Numbered from the stretch's first letter, positions 31,885 to 63,697 are shown. The stretch is DNA of 64,000 nt from Thermoplasmatales archaeon (GCA_014361195.1 JACIWA010000003.1:43681-107680), one strand, 5' to 3'. The notes: generated by a model from the sequence alone, not told the origin. Program-made: numbers and translations.

Positions 31885-32481
31885 TCATTCATAAAGCAAG
31901 CCAGCGATTATAACCGCTATTATTCCTGTAAGAAAAACCATATCAAGAATTGCTGCCCCTCCAATACTTGCAATTCCTGGAGAAGCTACTTCCAAAAATT
32001 CCTCAAAATGGAGGAAATCCGCTCCAATGATTGCACCAAATGTTCCACAGGAATAGGCAATGCTTGCGACCCTCCTTTTATTTTTATAGCCAGCAATTAA
32101 TGAATACAGGCCCGCTGAAACGGGAGGGAGGAGCCAATATGGAAAAGGAGATACAATTCCTTGAGAAGATGGATAGCTAACCATATATGCAATAAATGAA
32201 ACAATTGCTATGCCTGGCAAACTTCTTAAAAATATTTTTCTTGAGATGATTAAATAGATGCTTATCATCAAGGGCAAAAATGCTCCGCTCAAATTTATCG
32301 CTATAATCATCCCCTTATACTGAAATAACGGGATATCTATATTTCTAAAAAGGACGGAGCCAAAAACTATTAAGCTCGCCTCCCACCATTTAAAGCCAAC
32401 TTCCTCAAAAACATAAGTTAAGATAGAATAAACAAGAAATGAAATTAATGCTAATATCAGGAATATAAAGAGAGATATCAT
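31885..32481 (-). CDS. Integral membrane protein (DUF1614-like)
   Basis: 198 aa, ~5 predicted TM helices; family assignment tentative. Confidence 0.4.
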   Translation of the reverse strand: MISLFIFLILALISFLVYSILTYVFEEVGFKWWEASLIVFGSVLFRNIDIPLFQYKGMIIAINLSGAFLPLMISIYLIISRKIFLRSLPGIAIVSFIAYMVSYPSSQGIVSPFPYWLLPPVSAGLYSLIAGYKNKRRVASIAYSCGTFGAIIGADFLHFEEFLEVASPGIASIGGAAILDMVFLTGIIAVIIAGLLYE

Positions 32482-33104
32482 ATTTTGATATACTTTTCAA
32501 ATATTTTAATTAATTCATTTAAATCCCTCTTTTCAACCACAAAATTTGCAAAATTTTTTATCTCATCTGTTGGATTAAAAGCAATCTTTACTCCAGCTCT
32601 TCTGAACATATCAATATCATATTTTGTATCTCCTATCACAATTACATTCTCTTTCTCAACCCCTAATTTTTCAATTAGCTTTTCAAGCACTTTTCCTTTT
32701 TCCATCAATGGCACATTTAGAATTGCTTTCCAAGGCAAATTTTCTCTATAAATTATTCCATTTGCAAAAACATATTTTATTCCAAAATTGGCAATTCTTT
32801 TTGCTAGCGTATCAATTCCTCCAGAGATAATTGCAATTTCTCCAATTTCATTGAGATATTCAATGCATTCCCTGCATCCAGAGGTGAGGTCTATTGAATT
32901 GAAAATTTTTTCAATATTCTCTTTTCTTATCCCCTTTTCTCTCCACCTTTCAATATCTCTATTTAAAAATTCTTCATCATCTATCTCCCCCTTTTTATAA
33001 GCTTCAACAATATCATCATTTTTTATCCCGTATTTTTTATGAATTACTTTCCATGAACTCCTCTCTTCAATAAATACTCCATCCATGTCAAATACTATAA
33101 GCAT
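32478..33104 (-). CDS. HAD-superfamily hydrolase (phosphoserine-phosphatase-like)
   Basis: 208 aa; motif I FDMDGV, motif III K...GD(T)KYD. Confidence 0.7.
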   Translation of the reverse strand: MLIVFDMDGVFIEERSSWKVIHKKYGIKNDDIVEAYKKGEIDDEEFLNRDIERWREKGIRKENIEKIFNSIDLTSGCRECIEYLNEIGEIAIISGGIDTLAKRIANFGIKYVFANGIIYRENLPWKAILNVPLMEKGKVLEKLIEKLGVEKENVIVIGDTKYDIDMFRRAGVKIAFNPTDEIKNFANFVVEKRDLNELIKIFEKYIKI

Positions 33105-33172
33105 AATAGTATTTCAGCGAAGATAAAAATATTTTTGGCAAAAATTATTTAATTACCTCCAATTTTTCTTTC

Positions 33173-55139: not shown

Positions 55140-57236
55140 ATGAATTATAGGATAATTAAGGAAGGGGGACTTAACTTAATTGAAATAGATTGCTATTCAT
55201 GTAATTATTCCTCCTCTCTTTTGGATGAAAACTGTAGGAGAGAATTGATTGAAATAATTGGAAGGGAAGGAAAAATCGATAGAATAAAATTAAATCATTA
55301 TTTTGTGAAGATAATAGAAGGAGAGGCTCTGGAAAATCTTTTTGAGATTTCAAAATTCAAGGAAGAATTGTCCTCTCTTAGAGCAAATGATTGCAATGAT
55401 TGTATTTTTAGCAAAGAAATAAAGGGTATATTGGAATTGGCTGATAAAGATCAGATAAAATCTTTTTTTAGTCTCTCAAATCTATTTTATAAACTTAAGA
55501 AACCTTTTATTTTCAGAAAAGAAGAATGCGAGGAATGTAGGAGTGAAAATTTAAGGAAGATGGAGAATATAATAAGAAAATTTGAGAAATTGAGGCATAT
55601 CTCTTATGAAGATATAAGAATTTATCTAAGGCCAATATTTTTTGATACATCAATTGAATATACTCCTCCAAATGATGCAATTTTTATTAAAAGTTATGAA
55701 ATAAAAAGAGAAAGAGGTTCAATAAAAGTTTCTCTGTATGAATTAAAAAGAAGAGCGGAGAAATTATATTTTATCATACCTCCAGAGTATAATATAAATC
55801 TGGAGGAACTTAAAATACTTATTAAAGCAAAGGAAAAGCTTGCAAAACACAGACCACCAGATACTTCATTCATGGATCCTGAAAGGACGAGGGAATATTT
55901 TTACAGGTTTGGAAAGGAAAAGATAATAGAGATAGCAAAAAATATAAATTATAAGATCAGTAGCGAAAAAATAGATTTTTTGGCGGATATATTTGCAAAA
56001 TACACATCTGGGTTTGGAATACTTGAAGATTTACTGGCGGATAAAAAAATACAGGATATTTATATAAATGCTCCAGTGAGTTACAATCCCCTGCACATAG
56101 TACTTGAGGGAGAAGAATATGTAACAAATATCTATTTTTCGGAGAATGATATCGAAGCACTTTCATCGCGCCTTAGAAGCCTTAGCGGAAGAGGTTTTTC
56201 TGAGGCAATTCCAGTGATGGATGTTGGGCTCCCTGAATATGACTCACGTATAACCGCAATTTCTCCTCCAATAACTCCAAAAGGAATAGCATTTGCAATA
56301 AGGAGACATTCAAGCGAGCTATGGACTCTCCCAAAATTTATTTCATGCAAGATGCTCTCTCCTTTAGCTGCGGGCATGCTGAGCTTCTTTATTGATGGGC
56401 AGGCGACAATTCTAATTGCGGGCTCGAGGGGGGCGGGCAAAACCTCTTTGCTATCTTCTCTAATGCTTGAGATACCGCAGAGGTATAGGATATTAACTAT
56501 AGAAGATACGCCTGAGTTGCCAGTTGATGAATTGCAGAGGTTGGGATATAAGATTCAATCTCTCGTCACTAAATCAGCTGTCAGTAACGAAGGTATAGAT
56601 GAAAAAACCGCAATTAAAACCGCTTTAAGATTGGGTGAATCAGTTATAATTCTTGGGGAAGTTCGTGGGGAGGAGGCAAAAATATTGTTTGAGGCAATGA
56701 GGATAGGGGCAGCTGGAAATTTAGTTATGGGAACAATTCATGGCTCAACTTCAAGAGATGTTTTTGATAGAATTGTTTATGATATTGGCGTGCCACCAGT
56801 TTCATTCAAAGCAACAGATGTGGTTGTAATTGCTTCACCAATAAGAGTAGGTGGTGGAATTGAAAGATTGAGAAGGGTTATACAAATATCTGAGGTTAGT
56901 AAGAAGTGGGAAAGGGAGGATGTTGATAAAATTTTTTATGATATAATGCAATATGATTACTCAAAGGATATGCTTGAGGCAACAGATATTTTTTATATGG
57001 GACAATCAGAAATAATAGGGAAAATAGCAAGAAAATGGGGAATCCGCATGGAGGATGCAATAGAAAATATAAAAATGAGGGCAAGGATGAAAGAAAAAAT
57101 TGCTGAGATTGGAAAAACAGATGCAAAATTTGTAAGGGATGCAAACAATTTTTATTGGTCTTCTCTTGAAGAAACTAAAAATTTTTATGAAATCGAGGAA
57201 AAATGGAATGAATGGTTGAAGAAACATGCAATTTGA
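55140..57236 (+). CDS. Type II/IV secretion-family ATPase (archaeal type IV pilus / archaellum assembly ATPase, FlaI/PilB-like) with long Cys-rich N-terminal extension
   Basis: 698 aa; Walker A AGSRGAGKTS, RILTIEDTPEL, Walker B/His-box VIILGEVRGEE...GTIHGS; the N-terminal ~300 aa carry CxxC-type pairs (CYSC...C, CNDC, CEEC). Confidence 0.85.
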   Translation: MNYRIIKEGGLNLIEIDCYSCNYSSSLLDENCRRELIEIIGREGKIDRIKLNHYFVKIIEGEALENLFEISKFKEELSSLRANDCNDCIFSKEIKGILELADKDQIKSFFSLSNLFYKLKKPFIFRKEECEECRSENLRKMENIIRKFEKLRHISYEDIRIYLRPIFFDTSIEYTPPNDAIFIKSYEIKRERGSIKVSLYELKRRAEKLYFIIPPEYNINLEELKILIKAKEKLAKHRPPDTSFMDPERTREYFYRFGKEKIIEIAKNINYKISSEKIDFLADIFAKYTSGFGILEDLLADKKIQDIYINAPVSYNPLHIVLEGEEYVTNIYFSENDIEALSSRLRSLSGRGFSEAIPVMDVGLPEYDSRITAISPPITPKGIAFAIRRHSSELWTLPKFISCKMLSPLAAGMLSFFIDGQATILIAGSRGAGKTSLLSSLMLEIPQRYRILTIEDTPELPVDELQRLGYKIQSLVTKSAVSNEGIDEKTAIKTALRLGESVIILGEVRGEEAKILFEAMRIGAAGNLVMGTIHGSTSRDVFDRIVYDIGVPPVSFKATDVVVIASPIRVGGGIERLRRVIQISEVSKKWEREDVDKIFYDIMQYDYSKDMLEATDIFYMGQSEIIGKIARKWGIRMEDAIENIKMRARMKEKIAEIGKTDAKFVRDANNFYWSSLEETKNFYEIEEKWNEWLKKHAI

Positions 57237-59064
57237 AAAATTATGTAGAAAGGTTGTTGGAAAATTGAAAATAAAAGAGGAAGATAAAGAGAGAGTAAAT
57301 AAAAGAGTATCTAAGGAATTTTTAGATAGCTTGCATTTCACTGGAATTGACCTTGAACCCTATGAAATAATCTATTTTTCTTATATCTGCGCATTAATTT
57401 CTTTTTTAATTACATTCCTTATTTCTATTTCAATTTTTGCAATTTATGGTTTTTCAATAAGAAATATGGGTTTTTTAACAATTTTCTTGATAATTTTGCT
57501 TCTTTTTGTTTTTCCTCTTCTTTCATTGCACTATGTAAGTGAATACCCTAAAATAAAGGCAAAATATATGAAAGCACGCTCCCTGGGCGATATACCGGAG
57601 ATAATATCTTATCTTGTAATGTATCTAAAATTAGTTCCAAATTTAGAAAGAGCATTTAATTTTGCAGCAAAAGAGTCAAATTCTTCTCTTTCAAAAGATT
57701 TAAGGAAAATTATATGGGATCTACAGATAAGAATACATAAAAGTATAGATGATGCAATAACTTATTTTGCAAATTTATGGGGGGAATGGAATGAATATTT
57801 AAGGAGGGCAATTCATTTAATAAGAAATTCTGTAAAGGAAAAAGAAAATGAAAGAGTTGCTACATTAGATAGAGCTCTTGATGTTGTTCTGGAAGGAACA
57901 AGGGATTTAATGATTGATTTCTCCAATAAACTTCATCAGCCAACTCTTATAATATATTCTCTTGGCTTTATGCTCCCTATTGCAACAATGGCAATGCTTC
58001 CAGCGGTTAATGTAATCGGCCTCAGATTCTCTATCTTTCATATAATCATATTTTATGATATTCTTCTACCTGTTTTCCTGTTTTTTTATATAAGAAAAAT
58101 TCTTGCAAATCGCCCCGCAACTTTCAACCCACCTTCAATTCCATCAAAAAAAATCAGGAACATAAAAAATATCTTAATTTCAATTTTTCTTTTCCTTCCT
58201 TTCCTAGCCCTTTTTCTTCGTCCCCCTACTTCTCTCTTTTCTAAAAATTTTTTCCTGATATGGGGTGTGGCAATTTCAGTCTCGATTTACTGCCTCCTTA
58301 CCTATAACAAAGATAAAAAGGAAAGAGATAAAATAAGGAAAATGGAGAAAGAATTTGGTGACGCCCTCTATATCCTCGGCAGGAGGGTGGCGGAAGGCAA
58401 GCCCCCAGAAGAAGCATTTAATCATGTAGCCCAAGCAATGAAAGGCTCTACTATAGGAGAAGTTTTTGCAAAAGCATTTTATAATCTGATTTCCAGAAGG
58501 ATAAAAATTGAGAATGCGTTTTTTGATGAAGAATATGGAGCTCTTGCCAATGTTTATTCAGATAGAATAAAGGCTATAATAAAAATTTTTATAGAAGGAG
58601 TTAAGAAAAGCTATGAATATGCTGGAATTGCAATAGTTAAAATAGCGGATCATCTAAAACAGCTTCAGGATGTGGAAAAGAAAATAAGAGACAGCTTATC
58701 TTCAATAACTTCTTCTCTTCGTTCAACCGCGACATTTTTTGCTCCTTTGATAGGGGGAGTAACTCTTGGAATGACAAATCTAATGCAAAAAATTCTTTCT
58801 TCATTGAATTTTTCATTTTCTGAGGATGTAACAATTCCAATATTTGGAAAGATATTTTATGTTGAAACAACAGGTGATTTTGCTATTGTAATTGGAATCT
58901 ATATTATTCTTCTTGTATTTTTGATATTGAGGCTCGCAAATGGAATAGATGAGGGGGATGATAAAATAGAATATTTCTATGGAGTTGGAAAATCTCTCCC
59001 AATAGCGGTTTTCATTTTTACAATTTCCTCCGTGTTTTCTTACATGATTTTTTCAAGTTTATGA
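57226..59064 (+). CDS. Type II secretion system F-domain membrane platform protein (FlaJ/TadC/PilC-like)
   Basis: 612 aa polytopic membrane protein with two T2SSF-like cytoplasmic helical domains separated by TM blocks; overlaps the upstream ATPase gene. Confidence 0.8.
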   Translation: MQFEKLCRKVVGKLKIKEEDKERVNKRVSKEFLDSLHFTGIDLEPYEIIYFSYICALISFLITFLISISIFAIYGFSIRNMGFLTIFLIILLLFVFPLLSLHYVSEYPKIKAKYMKARSLGDIPEIISYLVMYLKLVPNLERAFNFAAKESNSSLSKDLRKIIWDLQIRIHKSIDDAITYFANLWGEWNEYLRRAIHLIRNSVKEKENERVATLDRALDVVLEGTRDLMIDFSNKLHQPTLIIYSLGFMLPIATMAMLPAVNVIGLRFSIFHIIIFYDILLPVFLFFYIRKILANRPATFNPPSIPSKKIRNIKNILISIFLFLPFLALFLRPPTSLFSKNFFLIWGVAISVSIYCLLTYNKDKKERDKIRKMEKEFGDALYILGRRVAEGKPPEEAFNHVAQAMKGSTIGEVFAKAFYNLISRRIKIENAFFDEEYGALANVYSDRIKAIIKIFIEGVKKSYEYAGIAIVKIADHLKQLQDVEKKIRDSLSSITSSLRSTATFFAPLIGGVTLGMTNLMQKILSSLNFSFSEDVTIPIFGKIFYVETTGDFAIVIGIYIILLVFLILRLANGIDEGDDKIEYFYGVGKSLPIAVFIFTISSVFSYMIFSSL

Positions 59065-59965: not shown

Positions 59966-60349
59966 ATGAAGGAAATGGCAGAAGTAAGAGAACTTAAAGA
60001 GAATAGATACATAATCATTGATGATGAGCCTTGCAAAATTCTTAGCATAGCCACTTCAAAGCCAGGGAAACATGGAGAAGCAAAAGCAAGAATAGATGCG
60101 ATCGGTATATTTGATAATCAAAAGAGAAGTGTCATATATCCAGTAAAACATAAGGTCGCAATTCCAATAATTGAGAAAAGGACTGCACAAGTCATATCTG
60201 TAAGAGGAGATAAACTACAATTGATGGACATGGAGACATATGAAACTTTCGAAATGGATATACCAGAGGAATTCAAGGGCAAAGTTGAGGAAGGAAAAGA
60301 AATAGAATATCTGCAGGCGATGGGGAAAAAGAAAATAACAAGAGTATGA
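59966..60349 (+). CDS. eif5a: Translation initiation factor 5A (aIF5A, hypusine-containing)
   Basis: Start placed at internal MKEMAEV (the longer ORF from 59870 adds a non-conserved hydrophobic leader); hypusination loop [13 protein letters not shown]. Confidence 0.85.
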
Positions 60350-61128
60350 AGTTTGCTGATGCAGAAAATAGCTACGAAGATGCAAAGTTTGTTATTATTG
60401 GCATACCATATGAGGATGCAGAAATGTCTTTTAGGAAAGGTACTTCATTTGCACCTGATCACATAAGATATGAAAGCTGGAACTATGAAAGCTATGATTT
60501 AAGAAACAATTTTGACTTGAGCACCGCAAAAATAAATGATGCGGGGAATTTTGGGCTTGATGAAGGAAGGAAATTTGTAAATAAAGTAATATCTGATGGA
60601 AAAATTCCGATTATAGTAGGAGGGGCTCATTCAATTTCACCTTCTATTTTGCCAGATGAAACAGGGGTTGTTATTTTAGACGCACATCTTGATTTTAGAG
60701 AAGAATATTTAGGAGATAAAAATAGCCATGCATGCGCCGCCCGCAGGATTTTTGAGAGGGTAGGAAAGGAAAAAATAGTTTCTTTTGGAATTAGATCCGC
60801 CTGCAAGGAGGAAATTGGGGATGCAAAAAAACTTGGCTTAAAACATTTTTATGCGTGGGAATTTAAAGCGGGGATGGCGGAAAATATTGATTTTGATAAA
60901 ATTTTTTTGAGTATTGATATGGATGTTTTTGACCCGTGTTTTGCTCCAGGTGTAAGCAATCCTGAGCCATTTGGGCTTGGGTATGAAATATTTGATTTTA
61001 TAAAAATTATTTCAAAAAAAGTGCTTGCAATGGATGTTGTTGAAGTATGTCCTCCTTATGATGATGGTAGAGCATCTTTACTTGCAGCAAGAATTATAAG
61101 AGATTTTATTTCATTTAGAAGGTTTTAG
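60346..61128 (+). CDS. speB: Agmatinase (arginase/ureohydrolase family)
   Basis: 260 aa; metal-binding motifs [19 protein letters not shown]; classic coupling with aIF5A. Confidence 0.85.
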
Positions 61129-62145
61129 CCCATCAACGATTCTATCAATATCCAAGCCAGCGAACTTACTCAATTTTTCGTGAGTCTCTATCAATTTTTT
61201 AACCTGCTTATCCCCAAATTTTTTAAATTCATTTATAGCCTCTTCAATATTCCTGTAACCATTTGAAGTGAGATTATCTGCATGCGAAACAATTTCCTCT
61301 TCTATGCTTTTTGGAATATAATCTTTTTTCGGCAAACCAAGCCTTTCAGCGTCTTCCTCATCTATTCCGGAGCCAACATGCCTTTCTATTATTGCCACTA
61401 CCTTCTTTGGCAGACCGTATTTTTTTGCAATTTTAACTCCTTCAACAACATGCATCAAATCATTTCTTTTGGCTCTACCAACATCATGGAGAATTGCGCC
61501 CGCTTCAATTGCTTCCATATCCAAATTTATTCCATTTTCCGCTATTTTTTCAGCAATTTTAATTGCCAGATCTCTGACTTTTTTGCAGTGTTCAATAACA
61601 TCTTTACTGCATCCCTCCTTTTCAAGAATTTTCAAGTAATTATATGATAATTTTTTTCCTTTCTTGCTCGGAATTATTTTAATTACCCCGCCAAAATTTC
61701 TCTTCATCCATTCCCCGCCATTAAGCATGTGTAAAAAAATGGCAATAGATGAAACTTCTGAATGAGGTTGATTTCCTATTGCAACATTATAATCTGATAT
61801 TTCATAAAATTCTCCTGGAACCTTTTCAGAACCAACAATAACAAGAATATTTTCAAATTTTTTAATTTCTTCTATAACATTCTCAATTTTCTCCCCATAC
61901 ATTGTAAGATGAATTATTTTTCCGTTCCATTCTTTGATCAACTTTTTCCAATCTATTCCACTTTCAATAAAAAAATTCCCTCCAAATCTCTCGATCACCT
62001 TCCTAATTCTTTTTTCTAATTCCTCGTCTTTTCTATCTACAAAAATACCATCCGCCCCAAAAGCCCTGGCAGCAAGCGCAACATGGGTTGTCATTCTTTT
62101 ATCTCTTTCTATTCTGTGCCCGTATCTATAAACTATAACCTTCAT
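61111..62145 (-). CDS. tRNA (cytidine56-2'-O)-methyltransferase Trm56 (SPOUT) fused to a C-terminal HD-domain phosphohydrolase
   Basis: 344 aa; N-terminus MKVIVYRYGHRIERDKRMTTHVALAARAFGADG matches aTrm56; C-terminal half has HD motif (ILHDVGR) and downstream His/Asp residues. Confidence 0.75.
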   Translation of the reverse strand: MKVIVYRYGHRIERDKRMTTHVALAARAFGADGIFVDRKDEELEKRIRKVIERFGGNFFIESGIDWKKLIKEWNGKIIHLTMYGEKIENVIEEIKKFENILVIVGSEKVPGEFYEISDYNVAIGNQPHSEVSSIAIFLHMLNGGEWMKRNFGGVIKIIPSKKGKKLSYNYLKILEKEGCSKDVIEHCKKVRDLAIKIAEKIAENGINLDMEAIEAGAILHDVGRAKRNDLMHVVEGVKIAKKYGLPKKVVAIIERHVGSGIDEEDAERLGLPKKDYIPKSIEEEIVSHADNLTSNGYRNIEEAINEFKKFGDKQVKKLIETHEKLSKFAGLDIDRIVDGLKPSK

Positions 62146-62212
62146 CTCTTTTTATCAATTTATATTAATAAATTTTTTTGCAAAGTTTATAAATCTATAG
62201 ATAATTCAGTCC

Positions 62213-62863
62213 ATGAAAGTTGGAAAAAATACATTTATAGCAAAAAATGCAGTAATTATAGGAGATGTAGAAATAGGGGAAAAATGCAGTATATGGTATA
62301 ATGCAATTTTAAGAGCGGATTTGAACAGGATATATATAGGAGATGAGAGCAACATTCAGGATTGCTGTGTAATTCACTGTTCAAAGGAGAATTCTGTAAC
62401 AATAGGAAAAAATGTTTCAGTTGGGCATGGAGCAATTGTGCACGGAGCAAAAATAGAAGATGACTGTATAATTGGAATAAATTCAACAGTTTTGGATGGC
62501 TCAAAAATAGGGAAGGGAAGTATAGTTGCAGCAAATGCGATTGTTTTGCCAAATACAGTTATACCCCCAAATAGCTTGGTTGCGGGTGTGCCAGCGAAAG
62601 TGATAAGGGAGGATGAAAAACTCATTGAAGAAATAAGGAAGAATTCCTCAATTTATGTTGAGCTTGCGGAAAGATACTTAAAAGGAGGGTTTGAAGAGGG
62701 TAAAAAATGTCCCGTATGCAATGGAAATATGGAGAAAATTGCATCTGGAAAGGATTTTCCACCAATTCCATTTATAAAAATTCCAGATTGGATAAAGGAA
62801 GTAGATGCTTATAAATGCAATTCATGCGGATTTGTTGGATTATGGATTTGCCATTCATTATAG
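62213..62863 (+). CDS. Gamma-class carbonic-anhydrase-like hexapeptide-repeat protein with C-terminal zinc-ribbon extension
   Basis: 216 aa; left-handed beta-helix hexapeptide repeats (IGEKCSIWYNAIL..., VGHGAIVHGAKIEDDCIIGINSTV) then CPVCNG...CNSCG. Confidence 0.8.
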   Translation: MKVGKNTFIAKNAVIIGDVEIGEKCSIWYNAILRADLNRIYIGDESNIQDCCVIHCSKENSVTIGKNVSVGHGAIVHGAKIEDDCIIGINSTVLDGSKIGKGSIVAANAIVLPNTVIPPNSLVAGVPAKVIREDEKLIEEIRKNSSIYVELAERYLKGGFEEGKKCPVCNGNMEKIASGKDFPPIPFIKIPDWIKEVDAYKCNSCGFVGLWICHSL

Positions 62864-62864
62864 G

Positions 62865-63380
62865 CTACCATCCGTTATAATGAATCATATCATTGATTTC
62901 TCTTAACTCTTTCTCTTCAGGCTCTTCGTCCGCATAACCAACAGGAACAATTGCAACTGGCTTTATATAAGATGGTAAATTCAATATTTTAGCAATCTCT
63001 TCTTCATCAAAAGCTCCTACCCAGCATGTAGCAAGTCCTTCATCAAATGCAGAAAGTAAGAAATTTTCAACAGCTGCACAAGTATCTTCTATGCAGTAAA
63101 GCTTACCTCTTTTCCCATAGGGCAAAATTCTTCTTTCATTAGCACAAAAAACAACAACAAAAGGAGCGGATGAAATAAATTTTTGCCCATAAGAAGCTTC
63201 CGCAATTTTCTCCTTTATTTCTTTCTTATCAACAATTATGAATTCTCTCGCTTGCAGATTGCCCGCAGAAGGGGCAAGATTTGCAAGATAAAGAATATTG
63301 ATTAGTTTCTCTATATCAAATTTTTTATATGAAAATTTCCTTATTGACCTTCTATTTTTAATTGCTTCTTTTAGCTCCAT
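62865..63380 (-). CDS. Nitroreductase-family flavoprotein
   Basis: Start at internal MELKEAIKNRRSIRKF (ATG overlaps the upstream TAA by 1 nt); RRSIRKF motif and FMN-binding core; the longer ORF to 63485 overlaps the neighbouring gene. Confidence 0.8.
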   Translation of the reverse strand: MELKEAIKNRRSIRKFSYKKFDIEKLINILYLANLAPSAGNLQAREFIIVDKKEIKEKIAEASYGQKFISSAPFVVVFCANERRILPYGKRGKLYCIEDTCAAVENFLLSAFDEGLATCWVGAFDEEEIAKILNLPSYIKPVAIVPVGYADEEPEEKELREINDMIHYNGW

Positions 63381-63697
63381 TACGCCTTCATTATACCAGC
63401 AAGAAATACTCCAATAGCAATAACCGCGCCAATAATTCCCCCTACAAGCGAGGCAATGCCTTTCTTCACTATTTCCCAGTCCCATGCTCTATCTCCCCAT
63501 ATTGCCCCGCCACTGTAATTGTAGAAAACCAAGGCAACAACCAGGCCTATTATCAGCAGAATTGCGCCTATCGCCCTGCTCCTCCCCGAGCCAAAGTATA
63601 TTGTAAATAGCCCCCCTATTATTGTTCCAACCGCAAACACTAATAGAAGCATGCTCAAAAACAACCCCATAATATCGCTCATTTTTTCACCTCTCAA
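63380..63697 (-). CDS. Small integral membrane protein (3 TM, Gly-rich)
   Basis: 105-aa ORF, strongly hydrophobic, translationally coupled to the nitroreductase. Confidence 0.45.
   Translation of the reverse strand: MRGEKMSDIMGLFLSMLLLVFAVGTIIGGLFTIYFGSGRSRAIGAILLIIGLVVALVFYNYSGGAIWGDRAWDWEIVKKGIASLVGGIIGAVIAIGVFLAGIMKA

What the first reader, a model, noticed from the sequence alone, without database searches (positions are those of the whole stretch)
61111..62145. Trm56 tRNA methyltransferase fused to an HD-domain phosphohydrolase
Archaeal Trm56 (SPOUT 2'-O-methyltransferase for C56) is normally a stand-alone protein of about 180 aa. Here a continuous 344-aa ORF joins a clear Trm56 N-terminus to an HD-domain module (ILHDVGR...). 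A fused nuclease or phosphohydrolase would link tRNA modification to a second RNA-processing or nucleotide-hydrolysis activity.
Basis: partly seen in the sequence, partly recalled or inferred. Interest (0 to 1): 0.5.

Follow-up and report, generated by a model that had tools for sequence, protein, structure and literature searches.

The report
Known Trm56–HD fusion tRNA methyltransferase
The gene is real and does join the archaeal tRNA C56 2'-O-methyltransferase to a complete HD-type metal phosphohydrolase, but this is the usual, already published form of Trm56 in Thermoplasma-like archaea, and only the job of the HD half is still unknown.

Summary
Observation confirmed. Window 61111..62145 (minus strand) is one uninterrupted 344-aa ORF. 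Residues 1-166 are a full Trm56 SPOUT domain (Pfam E=1e-43; catalytic Arg17 present; model matches P. horikoshii Trm56 at 1.3 Å). Residues 167-344 are a full TIGR00295/HDIG-type HD protein (Pfam HD E=2e-15), with H186, H220-D221, H232, H256 and D290 invariant.

The fusion is neither an artefact nor new. The identical protein is in NCBI. All 120 best homologues (about 340 aa) carry both domains, including Thermoplasma volcanium and Picrophilus oshimae. NCBIfam has a full-length model (NF009343). T. acidophilum Ta0931 is the published example: fusion predicted in 2007, Cm56 activity shown in 2014, N-terminal domain solved as PDB 8X6K.

What I added comes from 80 species-representative genomes carrying this HD gene:
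- 8 have it fused to Trm56.
- 28 have Trm56 immediately upstream as a translationally coupled separate gene.
- 31 (30 Bathyarchaeia-labelled, 1 Thermoplasmata) have Trm56–TFE–HD.
- Methanogens have TFE–HD.

So the fusion looks like the collapsed end state of an old gene cluster, and it appears to have formed or split several times. The HD substrate is unknown; an RNA/tRNA-end or nucleotide phosphodiesterase is inferred. Interest is low to moderate.

The parts
61111..62145 (-). Whole gene: 344-aa Trm56::HD fusion protein (ATG at 62143-62145, TGA stop at 61111-61113)
   Evidence: ORF list; sequence read directly; 100% identical protein P0001 in NCBI; full-length match to NF009343
61648..62145 (-). 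N-terminal Trm56 SPOUT (trefoil-knot) tRNA C56 2'-O-methyltransferase domain, aa 1-166
   Evidence: Pfam PF01994 E=1e-43. NF003048 219 bits over aa 2-166. phmmer to PDB 2yy8 (PH0461) E=3e-54, 2o3a E=4e-51, 8x6k (Ta0931 N-domain) E=9e-45. Foldseek TM 0.91-0.95 on target length, rmsd 1.0-1.3 Å
62095..62097 (-). Codon of Arg17, equivalent to the catalytic Arg16 of P. horikoshii Trm56
   Evidence: Alignment to 2yy8. Invariant in 26 fused homologues. Role of this Arg taken from the PMC5372735 summary of Kuratani 2008
61114..61647 (-). C-terminal module, aa 167-344, colinear with a complete stand-alone TIGR00295-family HDIG protein
   Evidence: TIGR00295 150.6 bits over aa 171-320, model positions 2-151 of 164. 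End-to-end alignment with stand-alone proteins of 165-183 aa at 35-51% identity. AlphaFold model pLDDT 92.9
61267..61599 (-). Core HD domain (Pfam PF01966), aa 183-293, carrying the predicted metal ligands H186, H220, D221, H232, H256, D290
61483..61488 (-). Codons of the His220-Asp221 dyad (ILHDVGR motif)
   Evidence: Read from the sequence: atg/atc on the + strand is CAT GAT on the minus strand
62146..62212 (.). 67-bp AT-rich intergenic region shared with the divergent hexapeptide-repeat gene. It has a TATA-like stretch (TTTATTAATATAAA on the minus strand, about -27 to -14 from the ATG). Presumed promoter; inference only
   Evidence: Read from the sequence; not tested

Best explanation
This is the Thermoplasmatota-type two-module Trm56, an orthologue of Thermoplasma acidophilum Ta0931.

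N-terminal half (aa 1-166). It is a SPOUT trefoil-knot methyltransferase. By homology it dimerises, binds S-adenosylmethionine and methylates the 2'-OH of C56 in the tRNA T-loop, using Arg17 as the catalytic residue. That activity has been shown for the orthologue and is inferred here.

C-terminal half (aa 167-344). It is not a mere extension. It is an entire TIGR00295/HDIG-family HD protein, which in other archaea is a free-standing protein of about 175 aa. All of its predicted metal ligands (H186, H220-D221, H232, H256, D290) are invariant. Four of these positions (H186, H220-D221, H232, H256) align with PgpH in the profile alignment, so I infer a PgpH-like two-metal site. I therefore take it to be a catalytically active metal-dependent phosphodiesterase or phosphatase, not an inert appendage.

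Origin of the fusion. It is the end state of an old gene cluster:
- Trm56–tfe–HD (30 Bathyarchaeia-labelled genomes, one Thermoplasmata);
- then Trm56–HD as translationally coupled neighbours (many Thermoplasmatota, including a Methanomassiliicoccales genome);
- then one ORF.
On a neighbour-joining tree of the HD domains, fused and split states are interleaved, so fusion or fission seems to have happened more than once.

HD substrate. My committed guess, at about 0.4, is a phosphoester at an RNA or tRNA terminus (2',3'-cyclic phosphate or 3'-phosphate), or a closely related nucleotide. In that case the two-module protein would pair tRNA elbow methylation with an end-clean-up or nucleotide-hydrolysis step.

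Shown versus inferred. Shown: the domain identities, the conserved residues and the gene linkage. Inferred: HD catalysis, its substrate, and any coupling to methylation.
For: Domains
- Pfam and NCBIfam scores.
- The Trm56 half aligns to PDB 2yy8, 2o3a and 8x6k at E=1e-45 to 1e-54, with the RDKR Arg and the HLTMYG, VGSEKVP and NQPHSEV blocks conserved.
- The full-length AlphaFold model has pLDDT 92.8 and pTM 0.80.
- Foldseek TM is 0.91-0.95 to solved Trm56 structures.

Orthology and known biochemistry
- All 120 best hits carry both Pfam domains and most are 335-349 aa long, including T. volcanium and P. oshimae.
- Purified Ta0931 forms Cm56 (PMC4307237).
- Its C-terminal HD-like domain is noted in PMC5372735, and SPOUT–HD fusions in PMC1829167.

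HD module
- The invariant residue set appears in both fused and stand-alone sequences.
- A profile search puts PgpH (4s1b, E=3e-7) and the HD-GYP-like Bd1817 on top, with the HD motifs aligned.

Linkage
- Of 80 genome loci, 8 are fused, 28 have Trm56 adjacent on the same strand, 31 have Trm56–TFE–HD (one of them with Trm56 on the opposite strand) and one more has Trm56 about 3 kb upstream. Only 12 lack Trm56 in the flank, and 3 of those have truncated flanks.
- The adjacent pairs have real stop codons and ATGA or TGATG overlaps.
- Fused and split states are interleaved on the HD tree.

RNA-related partners elsewhere
- HD::Cgi121 in Ca. Syntrophoarchaeum and Mut7-C RNase::HD.
- In T. volcanium the fused gene overlaps a TruA-type pseudouridine synthase gene by 4 nt.
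Against: - No activity of any TIGR00295-type HD protein is reported in the searchable literature.
- The most widely shared neighbour of the HD gene in my sample is TFE, a transcription factor, not Trm56. The Trm56 link may therefore be inherited gene order rather than mechanistic coupling.
- The same HD module is also found fused to unrelated metabolic domains (IMP cyclohydrolase, YjeF_N, flavin reductase), although only in one-member clusters at 90% identity.
- Its closest structural relatives hydrolyse cyclic dinucleotides, not RNA ends.
- The protein scores just under NCBI's equivalog cut-offs: NF009343 362 versus 434, NF003048 219 versus 223, TIGR00295 151 versus 172.
- The 80 loci are those most similar to this HD domain, not an unbiased sample.
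- The tree is neighbour-joining on 169 columns, without support values.
Confidence: 0.85

Rival explanations
1. The fusion carries no mechanistic meaning. The HD module is a housekeeping small-molecule nucleotide phosphodiesterase or pyrophosphatase (for example of cyclic or linear dinucleotides, Ap4A-like compounds or alarmone-like nucleotides). It happened to lie next to Trm56 in an ancestral Trm56–tfe–HD cluster and became joined when the stop codon was lost.
For: - The tfe–HD pair is present in all 7 methanogen loci and in Bathyarchaeia, whereas Trm56 is absent from the methanogen flanks.
- The best sequence and structure relatives are PgpH, HD-GYP, YqeK and GppA-type nucleotide hydrolases.
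- Other fusions join the HD module to IMP cyclohydrolase, YjeF_N and flavin reductase.
- Fused and split states interconvert freely on the tree.
Against: - Trm56–HD adjacency with translational coupling is kept in 28 species, and the fusion in many more, after TFE left the position. That argues for selection on co-expression.
- The full-length model has pTM 0.80, which suggests a defined two-domain arrangement.
- Independent fusions or links exist to Cgi121, Mut7-C RNase and a pseudouridine synthase operon.
Confidence: 0.4
2. The HD half is a non-catalytic tRNA-binding or scaffolding domain, like the HD domain of the bacterial GlyRS beta subunit. It would raise tRNA affinity or tether Trm56 in a larger complex.
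For: - Trm56 activity was undetectable in soluble T. acidophilum extracts, and the authors proposed that the enzyme sits in a large complex (PMC4307237).
Against: - Every predicted metal ligand and the HDxGR and HxGxG motifs are invariant across fused and stand-alone members down to 35% identity. That is the signature of a conserved active site.
- The same protein exists free-standing in methanogen genomes, away from Trm56.
Confidence: 0.12
3. Assembly or sequencing artefact. Two adjacent genes (Trm56 and HD), as seen in many relatives, were merged by a single-base error.
For: Adjacent, overlapping Trm56|HD gene pairs are common in related lineages, so one indel could mimic a fusion.
Against: - Fused ORFs of 343-344 aa at 78-87% identity occur in independent assemblies, one of them in the same synteny.
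- The whole clade around the window sequence is fused on the HD tree.
- Complete genomes of cultured species carry the fusion.
- The alignment runs continuously through the junction, PSKKGKKLSYNYLKILEKEGCS.
Confidence: 0.02

Closest known systems
Thermoplasma acidophilum Trm56 (Ta0931); NCBIfam NF009343/PRK12703 'tRNA (cytidine(56)-2'-O)-methyltransferase', 339-position full-length model; PDB 8X6K (N-terminal catalytic domain)
   Same: - Same two-module architecture and about the same length.
- The N-terminal domain is 53% identical to 8x6k.
- The T. volcanium orthologue is 46% identical over 97% of the length.
- The NF009343 alignment covers aa 3-336.
- Catalytic Arg and HD ligands are conserved.
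   Different: - A different, uncultured Thermoplasmatales lineage.
- It scores 362 bits, below the 434-bit equivalog cut-off, so NCBI names the identical protein only 'HDIG domain-containing protein'.
- Genomic neighbours differ: agmatinase/aIF5A and a hexapeptide protein here, versus ArsR-like and TruA-like genes in T. volcanium.
- No biochemistry exists for this protein.
Stand-alone archaeal Trm56 (P. horikoshii PH0461, PDB 2YY8; A. fulgidus AF0751, PDB 2O3A; P. abyssi PAB1040)
   Same: The SPOUT domain is 47-51% identical, with rmsd 1.2-1.3 Å and TM 0.91-0.95 on target length. It includes the C-terminal beta-hairpin ending in the P-x-x-x-GKK motif.
   Different: Those proteins end after about 170-200 aa. 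Here the chain runs straight on into the HD module.
TIGR00295 family (stand-alone archaeal HDIG proteins of about 165-195 aa, function unknown)
   Same: Colinear over the whole length at 35-51% identity, with identical invariant residues. In 28 Thermoplasmatota-type genomes the stand-alone gene lies immediately downstream of Trm56.
   Different: Covalently joined to Trm56. It scores 150.6 bits, below the 172.35-bit family cut-off.
PgpH HD domain (Listeria c-di-AMP phosphodiesterase, PDB 4S1B) and HD-GYP c-di-GMP phosphodiesterases
   Different: - Only about 15-22% identity.
- No 7TM sensor and no GYP motif.
- Val replaces the second His of PgpH's HH pair.
- The substrate cannot be transferred at this distance.
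HD domain of bacterial CCA-adding/poly(A)-polymerase-type tRNA nucleotidyltransferases (e.g. PDB 3WFO)
   Different: A different partner enzyme and low similarity (19% identity). It is not the closest HD relative.

Membership tests
Trm56 / aTrm56 (Pfam PF01994, COG1303) | Significant match to the family profile above the curated threshold | tested here: met
   PF01994 scores 148.4 bits against a cut-off of 25, E=1.1e-43
Trm56 / aTrm56 (Pfam PF01994, COG1303) | SPOUT alpha/beta trefoil-knot fold matching solved Trm56 structures | tested here: met
   AlphaFold model with pLDDT 92.8. Foldseek to 2yy8, 2o3a and 8x6k gives TM 0.91-0.95 and rmsd 1.0-1.3 Å. This is a predicted structure, not a solved one
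Trm56 / aTrm56 (Pfam PF01994, COG1303) | Conserved catalytic Arg (Arg16 of PH0461) and knot-region motifs | tested here: met
   Arg17 aligns with PH0461 Arg16. The HLTMYG, VGSEKVP and NQPHSEV blocks are conserved. R17 is invariant in 26 homologues
Trm56 / aTrm56 (Pfam PF01994, COG1303) | SAM-dependent formation of Cm56 in tRNA | not testable with these tools
   Shown for the orthologue Ta0931 (PMC4307237) and for Pyrococcus enzymes (PMC5372735); inferred here
NCBIfam NF009343 (PRK12703, fused Trm56–HD equivalog) | Full-length alignment and a score at or above the equivalog cut-off of 434 bits | tested here: inconclusive
   The alignment is full length (aa 3-336 on model positions 2-338 of 339, E=2e-108). 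The score is 362 bits, below the cut-off. Same architecture, more divergent lineage
HD superfamily / HDIG (PF01966, TIGR00277) | Profile match above cut-off, with the H...HD...D metal-ligand motif intact | tested here: met
   PF01966 scores 57.6 bits against 22; TIGR00277 scores 69.2 against 27.6. H186, H220-D221 and D290, plus H232 and H256, are invariant
HD superfamily / HDIG (PF01966, TIGR00277) | Metal-dependent phosphohydrolase activity | not testable with these tools
TIGR00295 family | Colinear end-to-end similarity to the stand-alone proteins, and a score at or above 172.35 bits | tested here: inconclusive
   Colinear at 35-51% identity with stand-alone members. The TIGR00295 score is 150.6 bits, below the cut-off. 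NCBI names some fused orthologues 'TIGR00295 family protein'
PgpH / HD-GYP cyclic-dinucleotide phosphodiesterases | Full set of metal ligands including the HH pair (PgpH), or the GYP motif (HD-GYP), plus sensor or receiver partner domains | tested here: not met

The most novel reading that the evidence does not exclude
The TIGR00295 HD protein, fused here and encoded next to Trm56 and/or TFE across Thermoplasmatota, Bathyarchaeia and methanogens, is a so far unrecognised archaeal RNA/tRNA-end phosphodiesterase. It could, for example, remove 2',3'-cyclic or 3'-phosphates. Alternatively it could hydrolyse a nucleotide that regulates or is produced during tRNA maturation or transcription initiation. 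Either way it would work physically together with Trm56, which would make the fusion a Rosetta-stone clue to a new, widely conserved step in archaeal RNA metabolism.
Probability: 0.25. Interest if true: 0.55.

Novelty: already known. Interest (0 to 1): 0.2.

Why it matters
As a finding it matters little. The Trm56–HD architecture is documented, has a curated NCBI model, a biochemically validated orthologue and a crystal structure of the methyltransferase half.

Three things keep some value:
- The HD half belongs to a widespread archaeal family (TIGR00295) for which I found no published function. Its persistent linkage to Trm56 and TFE gives a concrete, testable handle on it.
- The series Trm56–tfe–HD, then adjacent genes, then fusion is a clean example of a fusion arising from the collapse of a gene cluster.
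- The identical NCBI protein is named only 'HDIG domain-containing protein', so its tRNA methyltransferase function is missed by current automatic annotation.

Tried and rejected
- Frameshift or assembly artefact: rejected.
- A close solved structure for the HD half: none. phmmer gave E=0.012 or worse; a profile search gave only remote HD proteins.
- Literature on TIGR00295, MJ0778, DUF2110, or HD plus Trm56: nothing beyond the Ta0931 papers. The Renalier 2005 Trm56 paper is not held. No paper describing PDB 8X6K/9U46 was found.
- A second Trm56-like gene in the window at 32481..33113 (weak HMM hit): it is a HAD hydrolase, so the hit is spurious.
- Exact look-up of the window protein's contig: not on record.
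- DUF2110 downstream of HD outside Bathyarchaeia: found only in L067.
- Alternative fusion partners as functional clues: they are heterogeneous, and apart from Trm56 and Cgi121 they come from clusters of one or two members at 90% identity. I give them little weight.
- Model coordinates are not exposed to scripts, so metal-site geometry and the inter-domain interface could not be measured.
- No promoter scan was run because the available scanner targets bacterial sigma-70 promoters. The TATA-like element is only read from the sequence.

Full report
**1. Observation**

The window carries a single ATG-to-TGA ORF of 344 aa on the minus strand at 61111..62145 (codons checked by eye).

Profile scans leave no doubt about the two halves:
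- Pfam Trm56 (PF01994) matches aa 54-166 at E=1.1e-43.
- Pfam HD (PF01966) matches aa 183-293 at E=1.9e-15.
- NCBIfam adds HDIG (TIGR00277, 69 bits), TIGR00295 (aa 171-320, 151 bits) and the stand-alone Trm56 model NF003048 (aa 2-166, 219 bits).
- Most tellingly, NF009343/PRK12703 is a 339-position model of exactly this fused architecture. It aligns end to end, aa 3-336, at E=2e-108.

**2. Not an artefact**

The identical protein is already in NCBI from a Thermoplasmatales MAG, on a 201-kb contig. Orthologues at 78-87% identity from other assemblies are 343-344 aa long and carry both domains. One of them (P0004, 82% identical) lies in the same gene order in a different sequencing run: AsnC-like, small ORF, nitroreductase, hexapeptide protein | Trm56::HD | agmatinase, aIF5A (compare).

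All 120 best database hits carry both Pfam domains, and most are 335-349 aa long. They include the complete genomes of Thermoplasma volcanium and Picrophilus oshimae. A 26-sequence alignment runs through the junction (…IIPSKKGKKL-SYNYLKILEKEGCS…) without a break.

**3. The methyltransferase half**

- Residues 3-166 align with P. horikoshii Trm56 (PDB 2YY8, E=3e-54) and A. fulgidus AF0751 (2O3A, E=4e-51).
- They also align with chain 8x6k_A (E=9e-45), which the Foldseek table identifies as 'N-terminal catalytic domain of Thermoplasma acidophilum tRNA methyltransferase Trm56 (Ta0931)', released in November 2024.
- The catalytic arginine (PH0461 Arg16) is Arg17 here and is invariant in the family. 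Its role is taken from the review PMC5372735.
- The AlphaFold model of the whole protein is confident: pLDDT 92.8, pTM 0.80.
- Its N-terminal domain superposes on solved Trm56 structures at 1.0-1.3 Å, with TM 0.91-0.95 on target length.

**4. The HD half**

Residues 167-344 are colinear, from first helix to last, with free-standing archaeal proteins of 165-183 aa at 35-51% identity. The fusion therefore joins two complete proteins.

Invariant residues across fused and free forms are H186, H220-D221, G223, R224, H232, G236, H256, G258, G260, E282 and D290.

No close solved structure exists. A profile search ranks the PgpH HD domain (4S1B, E=3e-7) and the HD-GYP-like protein Bd1817 first, with the H / HD / H / HxG motifs aligned.

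I read this as an intact, probably two-metal, phosphodiesterase-type active site. The substrate cannot be derived at 15-22% identity.

**5. What is already known**

- Tkaczuk et al. 2007 list HD phosphohydrolase domains among the fusion partners of SPOUT methyltransferases (PMC1829167).
- Kawamura et al. 2014 purified Ta0931 and showed that it forms Cm56, on mature tRNA and more weakly on intron-containing precursor. They could not detect the activity in soluble extracts, and suggested that the enzyme sits in a large complex (PMC4307237).
- I found nothing on the function of the HD part, or on the TIGR00295 family in general.

I scanned one genome per GTDB species with an HD-module alignment. 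I kept the 80 best loci and searched their ORFs with HMMs for the Trm56 half, the HD half and the gene found between them.

| Arrangement | Loci | Where |
|---|---|---|
| Trm56::HD fused | 8 | Thermoplasmatota (one labelled only Methanobacteriota) |
| Trm56 immediately upstream, same strand, separate gene | 28 | Thermoplasmatota, including a Methanomassiliicoccales chromosome, and unspecified Euryarchaeota |
| Trm56 – about 170-aa gene – HD | 31 | 29 labelled Bathyarchaeia (one with Trm56 on the opposite strand), 1 Bathyarchaeia-type contig labelled Acidoferrum, 1 Thermoplasmata |
| Trm56 about 3 kb upstream, TFE–HD adjacent | 1 | unspecified Methanobacteriota (L062) |
| No Trm56 within 5 kb | 12 | 5 Methanosarcinales, 2 Methanobrevibacter, L057, L067, and 3 Bathyarchaeia contigs with truncated flanks |

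- The adjacent pairs have genuine stop codons and ATGA/TGATG-type overlaps or short spacers.
- The intervening gene of about 170 aa is transcription factor E (Pfam TFIIE_alpha).
- In every methanogen locus the HD gene is directly preceded by tfe.
- In Bathyarchaeia the extended cluster is HflX-like GTPase – Trm56 – TFE – HD – DUF2110.
- A neighbour-joining tree of the HD domains puts all Thermoplasmatota sequences in one clade, with fused and split states interleaved within it.

The simplest reading is an old Trm56–tfe–HD cluster. Loss of tfe from that position made Trm56 and HD neighbours, and they then fused or split repeatedly. The tree has no support values and the locus sample is biased towards relatives of the query, so the number of events is only indicative.

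**7. Function of the HD half: what can and cannot be said**

For a link to RNA or tRNA:
- Co-transcription with, and fusion to, Trm56 persists across many species.
- An independent HD::Cgi121 fusion exists in Ca. Syntrophoarchaeum, with four members. Cgi121 is the KEOPS subunit that, from my own knowledge, binds the tRNA 3' end.
- A Mut7-C RNase::HD fusion exists.
- In T. volcanium the fused gene sits in an operon with a TruA-type pseudouridine synthase and near Trm5 and an ArcS-like gene.

Against:
- The most widely shared neighbour in my sample is TFE, not a tRNA enzyme.
- Rare fusions to IMP cyclohydrolase, YjeF_N and flavin reductase point to nucleotide metabolism.
- The nearest structural relatives are cyclic-dinucleotide and nucleotide hydrolases.

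My estimates are about 0.4 for an RNA or tRNA-end substrate, about 0.4 for a small-nucleotide hydrolase with no direct coupling, and about 0.1-0.15 for a non-catalytic role. The last is disfavoured by the invariant ligand set.

**8. Verdict**

The feature is already known. It is the normal Trm56 of a large part of Thermoplasmatota, with a curated full-length family model, a characterised orthologue and a solved N-terminal domain.

The residual interest lies in the uncharacterised HD family and its conserved Trm56/TFE neighbourhood. That makes a modest, testable lead rather than a surprise. Interest 0.2; novelty: already known.

Noticed in passing
window 59966-61128 (+): aIF5A (127 aa from the internal Met; Pfam IF5A-like_N plus eIF-5a) is followed by an arginase-family (agmatinase-like) gene whose ATG overlaps the aIF5A stop (ATGA at 60346-60349). 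The pair is conserved in an independent relative (L086). The agmatinase 3' end overlaps the 3' end of the convergent Trm56::HD gene by 18 nt (61111-61128).
   Followed up: partly
window 62213-62863 (+): The hexapeptide-repeat (gamma-carbonic-anhydrase/acetyltransferase-like) protein has a C-terminal extension of about 50 aa with two CxxC pairs (CPVCNG…CNSCGF), a putative zinc ribbon. Hexapeptide genes also recur next to the Trm56/HD pair in 13 other loci (cluster 9), but in a different orientation.
   Followed up: partly
window 62865-63697 (-): The listed 206-aa nitroreductase ORF probably starts at an internal Met near 63380; the Pfam match begins after that. Its Cys/Trp-rich first 35 codons overlap the 3' end of an upstream 105-aa hydrophobic ORF (63380-63697) that has no Pfam hit.
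   Followed up: partly
window 55140-59064 (+): A T2SSE-family ATPase (698 aa) overlaps the start of a 612-aa multi-pass membrane protein with no Pfam hit. This looks like an archaeal type IV pilus/archaellum-type ATPase plus platform-protein pair.
   Followed up: no
L028-L085 (Bathyarchaeia loci), e.g. L028:2687-5504 and L029:3822-6247: A conserved same-strand cluster: HflX-like GTPase – Trm56 – TFE – TIGR00295 HD – DUF2110, with HD and DUF2110 overlapping by about 9 nt. A TGT_C2+PUA protein lies nearby on the opposite strand. HD::DUF2110 fusion proteins also exist (P0163, P0178).
   Followed up: partly
L024, L048, L064, L066, L079, L080, L082 (Methanosarcinales, Methanobrevibacter): The stand-alone TIGR00295 HD gene sits immediately downstream of the transcription factor E gene (tfe), with no Trm56 within 5 kb. 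I found no description of this tfe–HD pair in the literature I could search.
   Followed up: partly
P0150/P0388 (Ca. Syntrophoarchaeum, 335 aa): The TIGR00295 HD module is fused N-terminally to Cgi121, the KEOPS subunit. Four cluster members come from independent sources, on contigs up to 98 kb.
   Followed up: partly
L087 (Thermoplasma volcanium BA000011, 1126508-1133524): The fused Trm56::HD gene is flanked by a PF09824 'ArsR' gene upstream (4-nt overlap) and a PseudoU_synth_1 (TruA-type) gene downstream (4-nt overlap). Trm5, an LSM protein and a DUF5591+PUA (ArcS-like) gene are nearby, so this is a tRNA-modification neighbourhood.
   Followed up: no
P0001 (NCBI copy of the window protein): The identical protein is named only 'HDIG domain-containing protein', because it scores below the equivalog cut-offs of NF009343 (362 vs 434 bits) and NF003048 (219 vs 223 bits). 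The Trm56 function is missing from the public annotation.
   Followed up: yes
L072 (DASPTR010000048.1, labelled Candidatus Acidoferrum sp.): A contig assigned to an acidobacterial MAG carries the archaeal Trm56–TFE–HD–DUF2110 cluster typical of Bathyarchaeia. It is probably a mis-binned contig.
   Followed up: no
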